The translations under genes and the position numbers were made by a program. Shown one piece after another: positions 6,587 through 12,313 of a DNA stretch of 64,000 nt. Positions within the stretch are counted from its first letter, which is position 1, and every line of letters begins with the position of its first letter. Source of the DNA: Gammaproteobacteria bacterium (GTDB lineage: Bacteria > Pseudomonadota > Gammaproteobacteria > JAKEHO01); NCBI GenBank assembly GCA_027296625.1, contig JAPUIX010000183.1, positions 61,329 to 125,328 of the forward strand. The letters run 5' to 3'. The notes under the pieces were generated by a model. That model did no database searches. It saw only the letters and a program-made list of their open reading frames with translations, and had not been told where the DNA came from.

Positions 6587-7180
6587 TTAGCCAAACAAGC
6601 CCTGCGAGAGCGTCGCCCACTGCTCCTCCCAGAAACTGGTCGGAGAGGTATGAAAGCCGCTCTGTACATACTGCAGCATTTTCCCTTCCGCGTGCGCCAC
6701 GAGCAGGTTCGCTGTGACGGTCGGCGATCCCTTCGGCTGCAAGCCCGGGCTTAGAGTGCTTTCACGCAAGATCTGTTTCAATTGCATCTCAAAGCGATCG
6801 AAAAATTGTACGACACGCGTCCGAAGGCGCTCATTCTCGCCGACTAGCGCATCGCCGACAAGGATGCGTGTGATACCGGGATTTCGTTCAGAAAATCCCA
6901 AGAGCAACTTCAAGATACCCTGACAGCGCTTCACGACATCAGACTCATCCGACAGTATACGGTTTGTGAGACCAAATACTGAATCCTCCGCGAACCCGAT
7001 CAGATCCTCAAACATCTTCGCCTTGCTAGCAAAGTGCCGATAAAGTGCTGCCTCAGACACGCCGACGGCTGTGGCAAGCCTAGCCGTGGTGATTCGCGTA
7101 CCGGGCTGGTTCTCAAGCTCGCGGGCCAACGCTTCCAAAATCTGCTGCCGCCGACTCGGTTTCGCCTTAGCATCTTTCAT
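6587..7180 (-). CDS. slmA: nucleoid occlusion factor SlmA (TetR family)
   Basis: 197-aa TetR-fold ORF. Its N-terminal HTH (RITTARLATAVGVSEAALYRHFASKAKMF) and LLLGFSERNPGITRIL segment match SlmA closely. It lies downstream of argB/dut/coaBC as in Pseudomonas. Confidence 0.8.
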   Translation of the reverse strand: MKDAKAKPSRRQQILEALARELENQPGTRITTARLATAVGVSEAALYRHFASKAKMFEDLIGFAEDSVFGLTNRILSDESDVVKRCQGILKLLLGFSERNPGITRILVGDALVGENERLRTRVVQFFDRFEMQLKQILRESTLSPGLQPKGSPTVTANLLVAHAEGKMLQYVQSGFHTSPTSFWEEQWATLSQGLFG

Positions 7181-7208
7181 CTCACTTTGCCCCCTCCCAC
7201 CTCGCCAG

Positions 7209-8159
<951 letters not shown>

Positions 8160-8230
8160 TCACACGGGCACATTAATGCTGCCTGCCCACATCTACAGAA
8201 CTCCGGTCAAAAATCGGTGGCGGCAATGCC

Positions 8231-10732
8231 TTAGAATGGTAGCGGCAATTTTGGATCCAATTCCTGAAAAACACGACGAAACGCGTCTTGGATCCGATCT
8301 AAGGCCTGCTGATCATCCCCCTCAAAGCGCAGAATCAGGTACGGGGTTGTATTGGATGGCCGGATCAGCGCCCAACCATCCGGGAAGTCTACCCGCAGGC
8401 CATCAATTGTCGTGATCTTGGCTTCATCAAATACTGCACGTTCGCAAAAATCTTTCATAAAACTTGCATGCGATCGCTCGGGCATGCTCAGCCGCAATTC
8501 AGGTGTTGCAATGCCCCCGGGGAGCTCTGCAAATACCGCCTCTGGGGATTTTTTTGACTTTCCCAGTATCTCCAGGATGCGGGCTGCAGCATAGATTGCG
8601 TCATCAAAACCGTACCACCGTTCTTTAAAAAAAATATGCCCACTCAATTCCCCCGCTAAAGGTGCATTCTCTTCCTTCATCTTGTGCTTGATGAAGGAAT
8701 GCCCGGTTTTCCACATCACAGGTTTACCTCCGTGTTCCTCGATCACACGCCTTAGATGTCGGCTGCACTTCACGTCAAAAATGATCGGCGCGCCCTTGGC
8801 ACGAGAGAGAACATCGCGAGCAAAGAGCATCATCTGTCGATCAGGCCATATGATGTTGCCCGCGCCATCGATCACGCCGAGACGATCGCCATCACCATCG
8901 AATGCGAGACCTAAATCAGCCTTTTCCTGCTTGACCCGGTCAATGAGAACTCTGAGATTCTCAGGCTGACTGGGATCAGGTTGGTGATTAGGAAAATTGC
9001 CATCGACATCACAATAGAGTTCAACCACTTCGTGGCCAAGGGCACGGAGCACTTCCGGTGCCAATGTTCCAGCGACGCCATTGCCACAGTCGATAACCAG
9101 CTTAAATGCGTGATCGAGGGCGACTGGAATTTCTTCATTGACACGTCGCATATAGTCCCCCGTGATGTCTCTCGACTTGAGCTTTCCATTGCCAGTGACC
9201 AACTTGCGCCCCGTAACGCGATCCCGCAAGGCCATCACGGCGTTACCAGACAGGGTTTCTCCATCGAGCATGATCTTGAGACCGTTATAGTTTGGCGGGT
9301 TGTGGCTACCGGTAACCATCACGCCGCTGCCTGTATTCAGATGATGGGTCGCAAAATAAACCAAGGGCGTCGGGACCATCCCGATATCAATGACATCCCT
9401 GCCAGCAGCCCTAAGCCCCTTAATGAGCGCCTCGGCCAACTCTGGGCTTGACTTCCTGCCGTCACGACCGACCACGAGTTCCTGTTGCCCCCGTTCATGC
9501 GCCTCACTGCCGATGGCGCGTCCGATGGCATGGACCGAATCCGCCGTGAGTGTCTTTCCCGCCACTCCGCGGATGTCATAGGCGCGAAAGATGCTCTTTG
9601 CCAGCGGTACCTGCTCTTCTCGCACCACCGGCGTCGCCGACGACTCCGTAACAGCTTGGGCCCTTGCACCACGCGCTGCCAGCGACGAGGGCTGAGCCAC
9701 AGCTGTACCGCCCGCATAGTGAGCTGTTTTTGGAAGCCCCGGGACCAGTCGTTCCAGGCCAGGATGCGCCCCCAGCATGATCCCTTGCACTGCGCCGGCA
9801 TAGACCGCGGTCTCTGCCATCACCTGGGCGGCATTACGCCGCCCCCGCCGGAAGATCACATACACGCTGAGTGTGCCAAGAATCACCACGACAAGGATCA
9901 GTGACTCGACGCCAATGCCCCCCGTGAGTCCCCAGAAACCAGAGCCGCTTGAACCGGGCGCGCGGCCAGGGTCCGCCGCGGCCTGGTGCCAATAAGCTAA
10001 CCGCCACCCAGTGTTGGCCACGGGCAAGACCACGAGCGCTCCTCGCGCCTTCGCCGCGCCGTCGCCCTCGTGTGCCAGCACCAGCGTCTCGCCTTCATGC
10101 ACCACTTGGTGTAACTCCGCGTAGCCCTTGGACAGTGAAAGGCCCTGCATGGCCTCACCGAGGACGCCGACGTCGACACTCAAATGCAATACGCCCACGA
10201 GCTCCCCACCGCCGTTCGTGACCCGTCGAACCATCACGATGTGCTGAGAGGGACTGCCAAAAAACAAGACTTCGGCAGGGACGGGGTCCTCTGATGCCTC
10301 CGCCTTGCGCAGTAAGTCGAGCGATGCATAGCTCAAGGGCGGGAAGGTCGAAGTGTCAACCTCGTTGACGCCTGGTTTGAGCAGCCTGAGTTTCAAGGCC
10401 GACGGAAACTGGCCCGCAAGTTCATCCCCTTTGAGACTGAGCGCGGCCTCATCCGCGCTCACGAAAAGCGTAATCACCGCCTGTTGTGTGGCCAGGTCAT
10501 TGAGCACTCGCTGGGATGCGCCCAGCCGATCCGCCAGCTGGGCGGCGAACGCACTCGCCTCCTGCTGTACGGTTTCCAGTGCCTGTTCCTGTACCTTCTC
10601 GGCACGCTCCCGATAAAAGTAGCCGCCGGTCAGCGCCAGCGCCCCTAAGACGAGCACGCCCATGGAGGCAAGCAGTACATTACGCACCGTCCGCCTTTTA
10701 AACCGTCTGTGCTTAACAGGCCCTTCGACCAT
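8231..10732 (-). CDS. algC: phosphomannomutase/phosphoglucomutase (AlgC-type), ORF carrying a ~375-aa N-terminal membrane/periplasmic extension
   Basis: The C-terminal ~455 aa (about 8231..9606) align end-to-end with P. aeruginosa AlgC (SIFRAYDIRG, active-site TGSHNPP, DGDGDR, C-terminal LPLPF). The same frame is open for a further ~375 codons upstream. That stretch encodes two predicted TM helices flanking a ~235-aa domain. The true start is uncertain. Confidence 0.85.
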   Translation of the reverse strand: MVEGPVKHRRFKRRTVRNVLLASMGVLVLGALALTGGYFYRERAEKVQEQALETVQQEASAFAAQLADRLGASQRVLNDLATQQAVITLFVSADEAALSLKGDELAGQFPSALKLRLLKPGVNEVDTSTFPPLSYASLDLLRKAEASEDPVPAEVLFFGSPSQHIVMVRRVTNGGGELVGVLHLSVDVGVLGEAMQGLSLSKGYAELHQVVHEGETLVLAHEGDGAAKARGALVVLPVANTGWRLAYWHQAAADPGRAPGSSGSGFWGLTGGIGVESLILVVVILGTLSVYVIFRRGRRNAAQVMAETAVYAGAVQGIMLGAHPGLERLVPGLPKTAHYAGGTAVAQPSSLAARGARAQAVTESSATPVVREEQVPLAKSIFRAYDIRGVAGKTLTADSVHAIGRAIGSEAHERGQQELVVGRDGRKSSPELAEALIKGLRAAGRDVIDIGMVPTPLVYFATHHLNTGSGVMVTGSHNPPNYNGLKIMLDGETLSGNAVMALRDRVTGRKLVTGNGKLKSRDITGDYMRRVNEEIPVALDHAFKLVIDCGNGVAGTLAPEVLRALGHEVVELYCDVDGNFPNHQPDPSQPENLRVLIDRVKQEKADLGLAFDGDGDRLGVIDGAGNIIWPDRQMMLFARDVLSRAKGAPIIFDVKCSRHLRRVIEEHGGKPVMWKTGHSFIKHKMKEENAPLAGELSGHIFFKERWYGFDDAIYAAARILEILGKSKKSPEAVFAELPGGIATPELRLSMPERSHASFMKDFCERAVFDEAKITTIDGLRVDFPDGWALIRPSNTTPYLILRFEGDDQQALDRIQDAFRRVFQELDPKLPLPF

Positions 10733-10752
10733 CAGTTCCCGAAAGCCTCCCG

Positions 10753-11211
10753 CTACGACACGCGTCCGGTATGGCCAAAACCGCCGGCACCCCGCGTGCT
10801 CTCTTCAAACCTATCAACAATTTCAAAGGCCGCCCGCACCATCGGCACGAAAACCAGCTGTGCAATGCGCTCCCCCGGGTGGATGGTAAACGGCGCCTTA
10901 CCACGGTTCCAACACGAGACCAAGACCTCTCCTTGATAATCAGAGTCGATCAACCCGACGAGATTGCCTAACACTAGCCCATGTTTGTGGCCAAGCCCAG
11001 AACGGGGTAGCAGCACAGCCGCTAATTGGGGATCCGCAATGTGCACTGCAAAACCACTCGGGATCAATGCCGTTTCACCTGGGCCCAGGGTCAGCGGGTC
11101 ATCTAAACAGGCCCGCACATCCATACCTGCTGATCCGCTTGTTGCGTATTTTGGAAGAGGAAACTCAGTACCGACGCGCGGGTCAAGGACCTTGAGTTGT
11201 ATTCTTTTCAT
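10753..11211 (-). CDS. dut: dUTP diphosphatase
   Basis: 152-aa ORF with dUTPase motifs ([19 protein letters not shown]). Confidence 0.9.
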
Positions 11212-12313
11212 GATAGCGTTCAGCGATGACGGTGATCAGCTTTCGCGCGAGCTGATCTTTTGACGCCCGCGCAAGCGTGAGGCCCCCGCCCCGCCAGACT
11301 AACTCTAGCGCGTTTTCTTCACTCTCAAAACCCAGCTCCGGCCCACCAACCAGATTCGCAGCTACAATATCCAGCGCTTTGGATTCAAGTTTTATCCGGG
11401 CATTGTGCAAGAGATTCTCCGTTTCAGCCGCAAAGCCAATGGTGAACGGAGGATGCGCCTGGCTGGCTACCGCCGCCAGTATATCGGGTGTCCGCTCGAG
11501 AGTCAGCGTGATCCCTCCGTTCGACTTCTTAAGCTTGCGTTCATGCTGCGCCACACCCCGATAATCCGCTACCGCAGCAGCTGCAATAAAGATATCAGTG
11601 TCATCAACATCCGCCATCACCGCCTGGTACATCTGTTCGGCGCTGTAGACGGATTTAGAGCTGACACGCTCTGGCGGGTCGAGGTCAACGGGGCCCGTGA
11701 CCAATCTTACCTCGGCGCCCGCCTCGGCGGCCGCCCGGGCCACGGCGTAGCCCATGCGGCCGGAGCTTCGATTGCTAACGAAACGCACTGGGTCGATATC
11801 TTCGCGTGTCGGGCCGGCGGTCACCATCACGCGCCGATCACTGAGGCTGCCAGTTTCAAAGACGCCAGCCAAAGCCAAGACCAACGCCGCCGGCTCCAGC
11901 ATGCGGCCGGGGCCCGTCTCTCCACAGGCTTGTTCCCCTCGTGCTGGGCCCAGCACGAGGGGTGCGCTGGTGGCAAGACAAAGCGTGCTGAGCAAATCAT
12001 CCGCCATGCCAACGCTAAGTCGCGCCATGAAGTTAGCGCTCGCGGGTGCCACCAGCACCACGTCCGACCAGCGCGCCAGATCGATATGCCCCATACCCGA
12101 TTCCGTCCCCGCGTCCAGCAGTTCTGTGTGCACAGGATGCTCGGATAGGGCTTGCAGTGTCAGCGGCGTGATAAACGAACAGGCCCCTCGGGTCATGACC
12201 ACCCGTACCGCAGCCCCCGCCTCGCGGAGCCTGCGCACTAAATCGGCACTCTTATACGCGGCAATGCTGCCTGTTACACCGACAACGACACGTTTATTGG
12301 TCAGACTGCCCAT
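11183..12313 (-). CDS. coaBC: bifunctional phosphopantothenoylcysteine decarboxylase/synthetase
   Basis: 376-aa ORF with an N-terminal flavoprotein domain ([13 protein letters not shown]) and a C-terminal CoaB domain. Its 3' end overlaps the dut start. Confidence 0.9.

What the first reader, a model, noticed from the sequence alone, without database searches (positions are those of the whole stretch)
8231..10732. algC ORF with a ~375-codon in-frame N-terminal extension encoding two TM helices around a ~235-aa domain
The AlgC-type phosphomannomutase/phosphoglucomutase core (from about SIFRAYDIRG to LPLPF) needs only ~455 codons. The reading frame stays open for ~375 more codons upstream to a Met at 10732. 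This is not featureless high-GC read-through. It has a hydrophobic helix (VRNVLLASMGVLVLGALALTGGYFY) and a ~235-aa region predicted to be extracytoplasmic. A second helix (VESLILVVVILGTLSVYVIFRRGRR) follows with a positive-inside flank, and an Ala/Gly-rich linker then leads into the catalytic domain. This is the layout of a membrane-anchored sensor fused to an enzyme. Either a sensor domain is fused to a key enzyme of alginate, LPS and rhamnolipid precursor synthesis, or an upstream membrane-protein gene has lost its stop codon. Long algC ORFs have also been annotated in pseudomonads, although the characterised enzyme is the short form.
Basis: partly seen in the sequence, partly recalled or inferred. 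Interest (0 to 1): 0.55.

Follow-up and report, generated by a model that had tools for sequence, protein, structure and literature searches.

The report
Membrane-anchored sensor-fused AlgC phosphomannomutase (known type)
This gene really does encode a sugar-phosphate mutase (AlgC) fused to a membrane-anchored periplasmic sensor domain, but this "long AlgC" was already described in gammaproteobacteria in 2019, so it is another member of a known and still poorly understood family.

Summary
Window 8231..10732 (minus strand) is one 833-codon ORF. It has a basic N-terminus, TM1, a ~230-aa periplasmic domain, TM2 with a positive-inside flank, a conserved juxtamembrane motif, a disordered Ala/Pro-rich linker, and a complete AlgC-type PMM/PGM with all catalytic motifs. 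The periplasmic part folds with high confidence as a double-PDC/dCache sensor; its nearest solved structure is the B. subtilis KinD sensor domain. The fusion is not a lost stop codon. More than 100 full-length homologues (807-942 aa; the closest are 94%, 69% and ~54% identical) keep both parts in one frame, in the same coaBC-dut-algC-argB-slmA neighbourhood. The sensor half is under purifying selection (dN/dS about 0.3). This architecture, its synteny and its KinD/dCache relationship were published by Qian, Fei and Galperin (2019), who also showed that the full-length protein is made in Lysobacter. The ligand and the coupling mechanism remain unknown. Three side observations go beyond that paper's main text. 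The same sensor module occurs on GGDEF diguanylate cyclases. It occurs as sensor-only proteins in dut-X-argB loci. It also occurs as split sensor/PMM gene pairs.

The parts
8231..10732 (-). Complete long-form algC ORF (833 aa plus stop): sensor, membrane anchor, linker and PMM/PGM in one polypeptide
   Evidence: ORF list. Full-length homologues of 807-942 aa cover 100% of the query. The full-length AF2 model has mean pLDDT 84.
10733..10752 (-). 20-nt dut-algC spacer containing a GGGAGG Shine-Dalgarno-like element 13 nt upstream of the ATG. No terminator or sigma-70-like promoter was found here, so the gene is probably co-transcribed with coaBC-dut.
   Evidence: Sequence read; promoter and terminator scan. 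Co-transcription is an inference.
10682..10732 (-). Cytoplasmic basic N-terminus (aa 1-17, MVEGPVKHRRFKRRTVR), conserved in homologues
   Evidence: Alignments (M1, G4, P5, R9, R13 and R17 are nearly invariant).
10613..10678 (-). Transmembrane helix 1 (aa 19-40)
   Evidence: Hydropathy peak of 2.08. The AF2 model has a continuous helix over aa 13-81.
9914..10612 (-). Periplasmic dCache/double-PDC sensor domain (aa 41-273; folded core about aa 45-250)
   Evidence: AF2 pLDDT is above 95. Foldseek against the PDB: KinD 4jgp E 6e-8, target TM 0.65-0.70, then DctB, PctA/B/C, Tlp3, Mlp24, CqsR and LuxQ. Pfam dCache_1 gives only a sub-threshold hit (E 1e-3). dN/dS is 0.30 against L021.
9851..9910 (-). 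Transmembrane helix 2 (aa 275-294), followed by the positive-inside RRGRR (aa 295-299, 9836-9850)
   Evidence: Hydropathy peak of 2.44; AF2 helix.
9731..9808 (-). Conserved cytoplasmic juxtamembrane motif AVYAGAVQGIMLGAHPGLERLVPGLP (aa 309-334). In more distant relatives a different two-helix segment occupies this position.
   Evidence: Y311, G313, A314, I318, G321, H323, G325, E327, P331, L333 and P334 are invariant or nearly so in 110 sequences.
9599..9727 (-). Low-complexity Ala/Pro/Gly/Ser-rich flexible linker (aa 336-378)
   Evidence: pLDDT is 29-39 in the full-length model. Length varies only by in-frame indels (a 19-aa difference from the 94%-identical L019). It has the highest dN/dS of the regions (0.55).
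8234..9598 (-). AlgC-type phosphomannomutase/phosphoglucomutase catalytic domain (aa 379-833), with TGSHNP (9296-9313), DGDGDR (8882-8899), GELSGH (8636-8653) and RPSNTTP (8342-8362)
   Evidence: Pfam PGM_PMM I-IV. It aligns end to end with P. aeruginosa PMM/PGM structures 1K35/2FKF, E 1e-172. Motif coordinates are. dN/dS is 0.07.
10753..12313 (-). Upstream conserved neighbours dut (10753-11211) and coaBC (11183-12313)
   Evidence: Pfam dUTPase; Flavoprotein plus DFP. The same order occurs in L001, L018, L019, L021 and L022.
6587..8126 (-). Downstream conserved neighbours argB (7209-8126) and a slmA-like TetR regulator (6587-7180)
   Evidence: Pfam AA_kinase; TetR_N plus SlmA-like_C. The same order occurs in related loci.

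Best explanation
This is a genuine long-form AlgC: one 833-aa inner-membrane protein. Its N-terminus is cytoplasmic. TM1 leads into a periplasmic dCache (double-PDC) sensor domain, and TM2 returns to the cytoplasm. A short conserved juxtamembrane motif and a disordered linker of about 45 residues then tether a complete, catalytically competent phosphomannomutase/phosphoglucomutase. Shown here: the architecture, the fold, conservation of the fusion, purifying selection on both halves, synteny, and intact catalytic motifs. Inferred: the dCache domain binds a small periplasmic ligand, still unknown. Occupancy would change the TM2/juxtamembrane dimer state, and this would modulate the tethered mutase. 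The mutase supplies mannose-1-P and glucose-1-P for exopolysaccharide, LPS and related envelope glycans. Modulation could act on its activity, its oligomeric state or its access to membrane partners. Because the linker is disordered, I expect coupling through proximity or dimerisation, possibly inhibitory, rather than through a rigid helical transmission as in histidine kinases. In this organism the long form is probably the main or only product, because no ATG and no good Shine-Dalgarno site precede the catalytic domain.
For: ORF and topology. PMM domains and catalytic motifs, with an end-to-end match to P. aeruginosa PMM/PGM structures at E 1e-172. dCache fold: AF2 pLDDT 85.9 and top PDB hits KinD, DctB, PctA and Tlp3. 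Conservation of the fusion: 11 of 15 genome loci have one continuous open frame, and a 12th is continuous apart from one internal frameshift. More than 100 full-length homologues exist, including ones 94%, 69% and ~54% identical. The exhaustive profile search found 547 clusters. Selection: dN/dS against L021 is 0.30 for the sensor, 0.25 for TM2 plus motif, 0.55 for the linker and 0.07 for the PMM, and all indels are in frame. Fused orthologues have no Met in the roughly 40 aa before FRAYDIRG, whereas the two split loci have an ATG with a Shine-Dalgarno site. The only in-frame candidates here are GTG369/370, with a GGAG 15 nt upstream. The same sensor module sits in front of GGDEF output domains, which shows it is used as a signalling input. 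Synteny coaBC-dut-algC-argB-slmA. Literature: Qian, Fei and Galperin 2019 describe the same architecture, synteny and KinD/dCache assignment, and report a Western blot of the full-length Lysobacter protein.
Against: No expression data exist for this organism. The ligand is unknown, and Pfam dCache_1 matches only below threshold. The full-length AF2 model gives pLDDT 29-54 for residues 295-371, and the conserved juxtamembrane motif does not dock on the PMM domain, so no physical coupling route is visible. AlgC-type PMMs are reported to act as monomers, which fits poorly with dimerisation-based dCache signalling (Qian et al.). Against the very close L019, dN/dS for the sensor is about 0.9; this rests on only about 15 substitutions, so it is compatible with relaxed constraint but not conclusive. 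Split and sensor-only relatives show that covalent fusion is not obligatory.
Confidence: 0.9

Rival explanations
1. Two products from one gene. Besides the 833-aa membrane form, a soluble short AlgC of about 465 aa would be made from an internal promoter or internal start in the linker, as is suspected for P. aeruginosa, where the cloned 463-aa enzyme starts at Met392 of the 868-aa ORF. The short form would carry most of the housekeeping flux.
For: In P. aeruginosa a transcription start and AlgR-binding sites map inside what is now the long ORF. RNA-seq often shows more reads over the catalytic half (Qian et al.). In the window, in-frame GTG codons at residues 369/370 lie 10-11 residues before SIFRAYDIRG, the same position as the P. 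aeruginosa short start.
Against: There is no ATG between residue 319 and the catalytic domain. The only Shine-Dalgarno-like GGAG lies 15 nt from the GTG. No sigma-70-like promoter was found inside the ORF, though this is a weak test. Fused orthologues as a class lack a Met near the junction, whereas the split loci have acquired an ATG plus Shine-Dalgarno site.
Confidence: 0.25
2. Anchor rather than sensor. The dCache-like domain and the two TM helices would serve mainly to hold PMM/PGM at the inner membrane, next to alginate, LPS, pilus-glycan or exopolysaccharide assembly machinery. The domain would provide substrate channelling or localisation, with no ligand-dependent regulation.
For: The long disordered linker and the lack of a structured transmission element argue for tethering. 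PMMs are monomeric. Constraint on the sensor is relaxed relative to the enzyme (dN/dS 0.30 against 0.07).
Against: A bare anchor needs one TM helix, not a conserved 230-aa folded periplasmic domain. Polar residues are invariant or nearly so across 110 sequences (R116, H164, H183, E206, Q209, W243, W248). The same module precedes GGDEF cyclases, whose activity normally depends on sensor-controlled dimerisation. The juxtamembrane motif is strongly conserved.
Confidence: 0.2
3. Annotation or assembly artefact. An independent upstream membrane-protein gene would have been joined to algC by loss of a stop codon or by a frameshift in this assembly.
For: Related loci L001/L006 and L012 carry the two parts as separate, overlapping genes. 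The window also carries two unusual in-frame deletions relative to its nearest relative.
Against: The fused state is the majority state at every divergence level sampled (94%, 69%, ~54%, and 35-40% in the sensor), in independent assemblies and sources. All linker indels are multiples of three. The fusion is documented experimentally in Lysobacter.
Confidence: 0.02

Closest known systems
Long (membrane-bound) AlgC / Le2152 family of Qian, Fei and Galperin 2019 (L. enzymogenes Le2152, 772 aa; P. aeruginosa PA5322/PA14_70270, 868 aa; Xanthomonas, Stenotrophomonas, Xylella, Methylococcus and others)
   Same: The domain order is identical: TM, ~200-aa periplasmic dCache, TM, flexible linker, PGM_PMM I-IV. 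The coaBC-dut-algC-argB neighbourhood is the same. The nearest solved structures are the same (KinD 4JGP, DctB). Both are gammaproteobacterial.
   Different: The window is from an uncultured gammaproteobacterial lineage and its exact protein is not in the 15-billion-protein collection. Its clade has the juxtamembrane motif YxGAVxAIMxGAHPGxExLxPxLP, where more distant long AlgCs have a different two-helix segment.
P. aeruginosa PMM/PGM (AlgC short form, 463 aa; PDB 1K35, 1P5D, 2FKF)
   Same: The catalytic domain aligns end to end (E 1e-172). The phosphoserine loop TGSHNP, the metal loop DGDGDR, the sugar loop GE(L/M)SGH and the phosphate-binding loop R(P/A)SNTTP are all present.
   Different: All structural and enzymological work used the soluble fragment. 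The window protein carries 378 extra N-terminal residues and has no Met at the position of the short-form start.
dCache/double-PDC extracellular sensor domains of histidine kinases, chemoreceptors and diguanylate cyclases (B. subtilis KinD, DctB, PctA/B/C, Tlp3, Mlp24, LuxQ, CqsR, A. caviae DGC 7K5N)
   Same: The fold and topology match: a long N-terminal helix continuous with TM1, then two PAS-like alpha/beta modules returning to TM2.
   Different: Sequence identity is 11-17%. The domain is compact (~210 aa, KinD-sized). No Pfam Cache model reaches its threshold. The output is a metabolic enzyme joined by a disordered linker, not a kinase, MCP or GGDEF domain joined by a continuous helix or HAMP.
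GGDEF proteins carrying the same sensor family (P0063, P0087, P0098, P0108, P0117, P0118, P0132; 491-542 aa)
   Same: They were retrieved by a 3-sequence profile of the AlgC sensor at E 1e-24 to 1e-32 over the whole periplasmic domain. They have the same TM-sensor-TM layout and a juxtamembrane two-helix segment like that of distant long AlgCs.
   Different: The output is a diguanylate cyclase domain placed immediately after the juxtamembrane segment, with no long disordered linker. Their genomic context was not examined.

Membership tests
Long membrane-bound AlgC (Qian, Fei and Galperin 2019) | C-terminal AlgC-type alpha-D-phosphohexomutase domain (PGM_PMM I-IV) with intact catalytic motifs | tested here: met
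   Pfam domains I-IV at E 1e-14 to 1e-38. 1K35/2FKF match at E 1e-172 over the full length. TGSHNP, DGDGDR, GELSGH and RPSNTTP were located.
Long membrane-bound AlgC (Qian, Fei and Galperin 2019) | N-terminal periplasmic domain of ~200 aa anchored by two transmembrane segments, in the same polypeptide | tested here: met
   Exactly two hydrophobic segments (aa 19-40 and 275-294) with positive-inside flanks, within a single ORF. Topology is predicted, not measured.
Long membrane-bound AlgC (Qian, Fei and Galperin 2019) | The periplasmic domain belongs to the dCache/double-PDC superfamily, nearest to KinD and DctB | tested here: met
   AF2 pLDDT above 95 in the domain. Foldseek top hits are 4jgp/4jgq/4jgo (KinD), then 3e4o/2zbb (DctB). 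Pfam dCache_1 is only sub-threshold, as the paper also notes for this family.
Long membrane-bound AlgC (Qian, Fei and Galperin 2019) | Flexible low-complexity cytoplasmic linker between TM2 and the enzyme | tested here: met
   pLDDT 29-54 for aa 295-371. In-frame length variation. Ala/Pro/Lys-rich linkers in orthologues.
Long membrane-bound AlgC (Qian, Fei and Galperin 2019) | Located in the conserved coaBC-dut-algC(-argB) cluster | tested here: met
   Pfam scan of the window neighbours. The same order occurs in related loci.
Long membrane-bound AlgC (Qian, Fei and Galperin 2019) | Direct sequence homology of the N-terminal domain to Le2152 (ROU09072.2) or PA5322 (AAG08707.1) | not testable with these tools
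   Those sequences are not in any searchable collection here. The supplement alignment is illegible and afdb50 is unavailable. Indirect support: the sensor profile retrieves 547 clusters, including 46 PMM-fused proteins among the top 150.
Long membrane-bound AlgC (Qian, Fei and Galperin 2019) | The full-length protein is expressed | not testable with these tools
   No transcript or protein data exist for this organism. Supported only by conservation of the start Met and N-terminal motif and by selection on the sensor.
Pfam dCache_1 (PF02743) | Score at or above the gathering threshold (45 bits) | tested here: not met
   16.6-19.2 bits, E 1e-3 to 6e-3. It is a dCache-superfamily fold but not a member of this Pfam family.
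HAMP-coupled transmembrane receptors | A recognisable HAMP domain after TM2 | tested here: not met
   No HAMP hit in the window protein, the GGDEF relatives or the sensor-only relatives. The juxtamembrane segment only resembles a two-helix element by eye.

The most novel reading that the evidence does not exclude
The dCache-TM-juxtamembrane module may be an autonomous signalling protein, with the AlgC fusion acting as a 'Rosetta stone' for an interaction. Sensor-only proteins (405-419 aa) sit in dut-X-argB loci without any PMM domain. Split sensor/PMM gene pairs have overlapping stop and start codons. The same module also occurs on GGDEF cyclases. Together these suggest that the module can regulate a soluble PMM/PGM, or another partner, in trans through its conserved cytoplasmic tail motifs. 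One periplasmic signal would then be linked to both sugar-nucleotide precursor supply and c-di-GMP output.
Probability: 0.2. Interest if true: 0.55.

Novelty: already known. Interest (0 to 1): 0.27.

Why it matters
AlgC sits at the branch point that supplies mannose-1-P and glucose-1-P for alginate, Psl/Pel-type exopolysaccharides, LPS core and rhamnolipids. A periplasmic sensor wired directly to this enzyme would give post-translational, environment-dependent control of envelope and biofilm precursor supply. That idea is already published but is unresolved experimentally: the ligand is unknown, the coupling mechanism is unknown, and almost all biochemistry was done on the truncated enzyme. 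This window adds only a further member. It is a clean case, because the long form seems to be the only plausible product. It also led to sensor-only, split and GGDEF-linked relatives, which could help to design experiments on how the module works.

Tried and rejected
The word-index protein searches with the N-terminal region alone or with a 44-sequence profile returned only 2 and 7 hits, because low-complexity words swamp the candidate list. The exhaustive HMM search and the full-length query were needed. Many 'sensor without PMM' representatives proved to be contig-end fragments (for example P0007), so the raw count of 104 of 150 without PMM is not evidence against the fusion. The 'split' locus L016 proved to be a single frameshift inside the sensor domain, with the remainder in frame with the PMM. 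Rfam, tRNA and tandem-repeat scans of the window found nothing. The promoter and terminator scan gave nothing above shuffled expectation in 8000-11300. The full-length AF2 run was meant to test whether the conserved juxtamembrane motif docks on the PMM domain; it stayed at low confidence, so this gives no support. afdb50 was unavailable, PMC6773520 is not held, and the dCache alignment in the preprint supplement is illegible, so no direct comparison with the Le2152 or PA5322 N-domains was possible. Cluster look-ups gave no cultured-organism names. I considered calling the juxtamembrane segment a HAMP domain and rejected it, because Pfam finds no HAMP.
Full report
**Observation.** The ORF at 8231..10732 on the minus strand is real: 833 codons starting from an ATG. 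Pfam finds the four PGM_PMM domains at residues 380-820. The first ~378 codons are therefore an extension. The extension has no stops in its own frame, against 13 and 10 in the other two sense frames. None of 20000 shuffles of its 1126 nt left the frame open. A Kyte-Doolittle scan finds exactly two hydrophobic segments in the whole protein: aa 19-40 and aa 275-294. The first follows KHRRFKRRTVR and the second is followed by RRGRR. This gives an N-in topology with residues 41-273 outside the membrane. The extension is more GC-rich than the enzyme half (63%; GC3 0.70 against 0.56). Everything below shows it is nevertheless coding sequence.

**Is the extension a protein?** A word-index search with the extension found only two homologues. 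An exhaustive HMM search with a 3-sequence profile found much more:
- 547 clusters at E <= 1e-3, and 76 at E <= 1e-30.
- Among the top 150 representatives, 29 are full-length fusions with a PMM domain (796-900 aa) and 17 are truncated fusions.
- Many of the remaining 104 are contig-end fragments; P0007 is one example.

A search with the whole 833-aa protein returned more than 100 proteins of 807-942 aa that cover 100% of the query. The closest are 94% (837 aa), 69% (824 aa) and about 54% identical.

In a scan of one genome per species, 15 loci encode the sensor:
- 11 have one continuous frame through sensor and PMM.
- One (L016) has a single frameshift inside the sensor, with the rest in frame with the PMM.
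- One is cut by the contig end.
- Two (L006, which is the same locus as L001, and L012) are truly split.

The N-terminal motif MVxGPVxxRRFxRR, and hence the start codon at 10732, is conserved. The 94%-identical locus L019 has the same upstream codons, although its gene caller chose a later GTG.

Nei-Gojobori estimates of dN/dS against the 69%-identical L021:

| Region | dN/dS |
|---|---|
| Periplasmic domain | 0.30 |
| TM2 plus juxtamembrane motif | 0.25 |
| Linker | 0.55 |
| PMM domain | 0.07 |

All length differences are in frame, including a 19-aa linker indel against L019. Against the near-identical L019 the sensor ratio is about 0.9. That figure rests on only about 15 substitutions and is not informative.

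**What the extension is.** AlphaFold2, run with a 44-sequence alignment, gave mean pLDDT 85.9, and above 95 over residues ~45-250. The model has a long helix continuous with TM1, followed by two alpha/beta modules that lead back to TM2. Foldseek against the PDB puts the B. subtilis KinD sensor domain first (4jgp/4jgq/4jgo; E 6e-8; target-normalised TM 0.65-0.70). The next hits are DctB, PctA/B/C, Tlp3, Mlp24, CqsR, LuxQ and a dCache diguanylate cyclase. The domain is therefore a compact double-PDC/dCache sensor fold. Pfam dCache_1 matches only below its threshold.

After TM2 comes a strongly conserved motif, YxGAVxAIMxGAHPGxExLxPxLP (aa 309-334). It is followed by a low-complexity linker. In a full-length AF2 model built from 110 sequences, both globular halves exceed pLDDT 90. 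Residues 295-371 stay at 29-54, and the motif does not gain confidence. The two halves therefore behave as beads on a flexible tether.

**The enzyme half.** It aligns end to end with the P. aeruginosa PMM/PGM crystal structures (1K35, 2FKF and others; E 1e-172). It keeps TGSHNP, DGDGDR, GELSGH and RPSNTTP. No second PMM or sensor gene lies in the window.

**Context.** Reading along the minus strand, the gene order is coaBC, dut, algC, argB and a slmA-like regulator, with rpmB divergent upstream. The same order occurs in L001, L018, L019 and L021. Only 20 nt separate the dut stop from the algC ATG, and this spacer contains a GGGAGG element. No terminator or sigma-70-like promoter was detected there or inside the ORF; this is a weak test.

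**One product or two?** In P. aeruginosa the classical 463-aa enzyme starts at Met392 of an 868-aa ORF, and a transcription start with AlgR sites lies inside the long ORF. Here there is no ATG between residue 319 and the catalytic domain. The only in-frame candidates are GTG369/370, with a GGAG 15 nt upstream. Fused orthologues as a class lack a Met in the ~40 residues before FRAYDIRG. The two split loci, by contrast, have an ATG with a proper Shine-Dalgarno site that overlaps the sensor gene's stop codon. I therefore think the long form is the main product in this organism. A minor short form cannot be excluded.

**Comparison with the literature.** Qian, Fei and Galperin (bioRxiv 10.1101/589796, 2019; published in Environ Microbiol 21:3969-3978, as cited) describe exactly this architecture. 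Their findings include:
- Long AlgC proteins have a ~200-aa periplasmic dCache domain between two TM segments, then a flexible linker and the PMM domain.
- The genes lie in coaBC-dut-algC(-argB) clusters in at least eight gammaproteobacterial orders.
- KinD (4JGP) and DctB are the nearest structures.
- A Western blot shows the full-length Lysobacter protein.
- RNA-seq supports transcription of the sensor region in several species.
- They propose that an unknown ligand modulates, and perhaps inhibits, PMM activity.

I read these. My results reproduce theirs independently. A search of the library found no later work that identifies the ligand or the mechanism. The finding is therefore a correct re-discovery of a known but little-studied family.

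**Mechanism.** The architecture is shown; the coupling is inferred. The same sensor family sits in front of GGDEF domains (P0063, P0087, P0098, P0108, P0117, P0118, P0132). These were retrieved at E 1e-24 to 1e-32 by a profile that contained no GGDEF protein. This argues that the module is a real signal input and not merely an anchor. The invariant polar residues of the periplasmic domain argue the same way (R116, H183, Q209 and W248 invariant; H164, E206 and W243 nearly invariant). The disordered linker and the monomeric nature of PMMs argue against rigid helical transmission. My best guess is ligand-dependent change in dimer or tether geometry that alters the activity or accessibility of the mutase. 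An anchor-only role remains a live rival.

**Beyond the paper's main text.**
- The GGDEF paralogues described above.
- A class of sensor-only proteins (405-419 aa; P0036, P0042, P0045, P0054, P0055, P0065, P0071, P0072, P0093, P0096, P0139). They have a two-helix juxtamembrane segment and an acidic tail motif (LMFMDKDSVxVEEL). They lie in coaBC-dut-X-argB(-slmA) loci and have no PMM domain. This is the mirror image of the P. fluorescens/P. putida case, where the sensor was lost and the PMM kept.
- Split sensor/PMM gene pairs with overlapping stop and start codons.

Together these allow, but do not prove, that the module can act in trans.

**Verdict.** The lost-stop alternative is rejected. In novelty terms this is already known. 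Interest is modest.

Noticed in passing
window about 11955 (within coaBC, 11183..12313, minus strand): The window's coaBC is 376 aa, against 405 aa in its relatives. An exact 87-bp in-frame deletion relative to L019 (98.4% nt identity) and L021 removes VLAPAMNQQMWQALPTQENRCVLKRRGVA. This is the PAMNxxMW motif region of the flavoprotein (PPC decarboxylase) half. A 4-bp TGCT microhomology lies at both edges. It could be a strain variant, a defective allele or an assembly artefact.
   Followed up: partly
window 9599..9727 (algC linker), compared with L019 4001-6514: The window lacks 19 aa (57 bp, RASPAPAAPGGAEQAPAST) that are present in the linker of the 94%-identical L019 protein. This is a second in-frame deletion within 2.5 kb of the coaBC one.
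   Followed up: partly
L022 1282-2541, L023 18-1277, L024 280-1524: Sensor-only relatives (414-419 aa) have TM, dCache, TM, a two-helix juxtamembrane segment and an acidic tail, with no PMM and no Pfam output domain. They sit between dut and argB in the conserved locus, so the PMM half was lost or moved while the sensor stayed.
   Followed up: partly
proteins P0063, P0087, P0098, P0108, P0117, P0118, P0132 (no window coordinates): The same dCache family is fused to GGDEF diguanylate cyclase domains in proteins of 491-542 aa. They share a juxtamembrane pattern (L+QD...L..L..D.R.G.L...YP.+L.EF) with distant long AlgCs. Their genomic context was not examined.
   Followed up: partly
L001 5001-7630 (= L006) and L012 3830-6386: In these gene-fission variants the sensor gene ends in the linker and the PMM gene starts with its own ATG and Shine-Dalgarno site, overlapping the sensor gene's stop codon (ATGA in L001). 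Both come from long-read MAG assemblies with UUID isolate names, so an indel error in the low-complexity linker cannot be fully excluded.
   Followed up: partly
L016 4001-6569: There is a single frameshift inside the sensor domain of an otherwise fused long algC in a 2.75-Mb MAG chromosome. It is either a pseudogenised sensor or an assembly indel.
   Followed up: no
L002 1053-2321 (protein P0001): A sensor homologue of 422 aa has a tail after the linker with a weak DUF2958 match instead of a PMM domain. It lies on a 2.4-kb short-read contig and may be a chimeric assembly.
   Followed up: no
window 9607..10732 compared with 8234..9606: Composition steps within one gene. The sensor half has GC 63% and GC3 0.70. 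The enzyme half has GC3 0.56, and the neighbouring genes 0.55-0.64. The cause was not established; Ala/Gly/Arg-rich composition, different codon constraint or a different evolutionary origin are all possible.
   Followed up: no
alignment A3, linker columns (no equivalent in window 9599..9727): Most close homologues carry a conserved SQGxxGDDxTMI motif in the linker. The window protein and its 94% and 69% relatives lack it.
   Followed up: no
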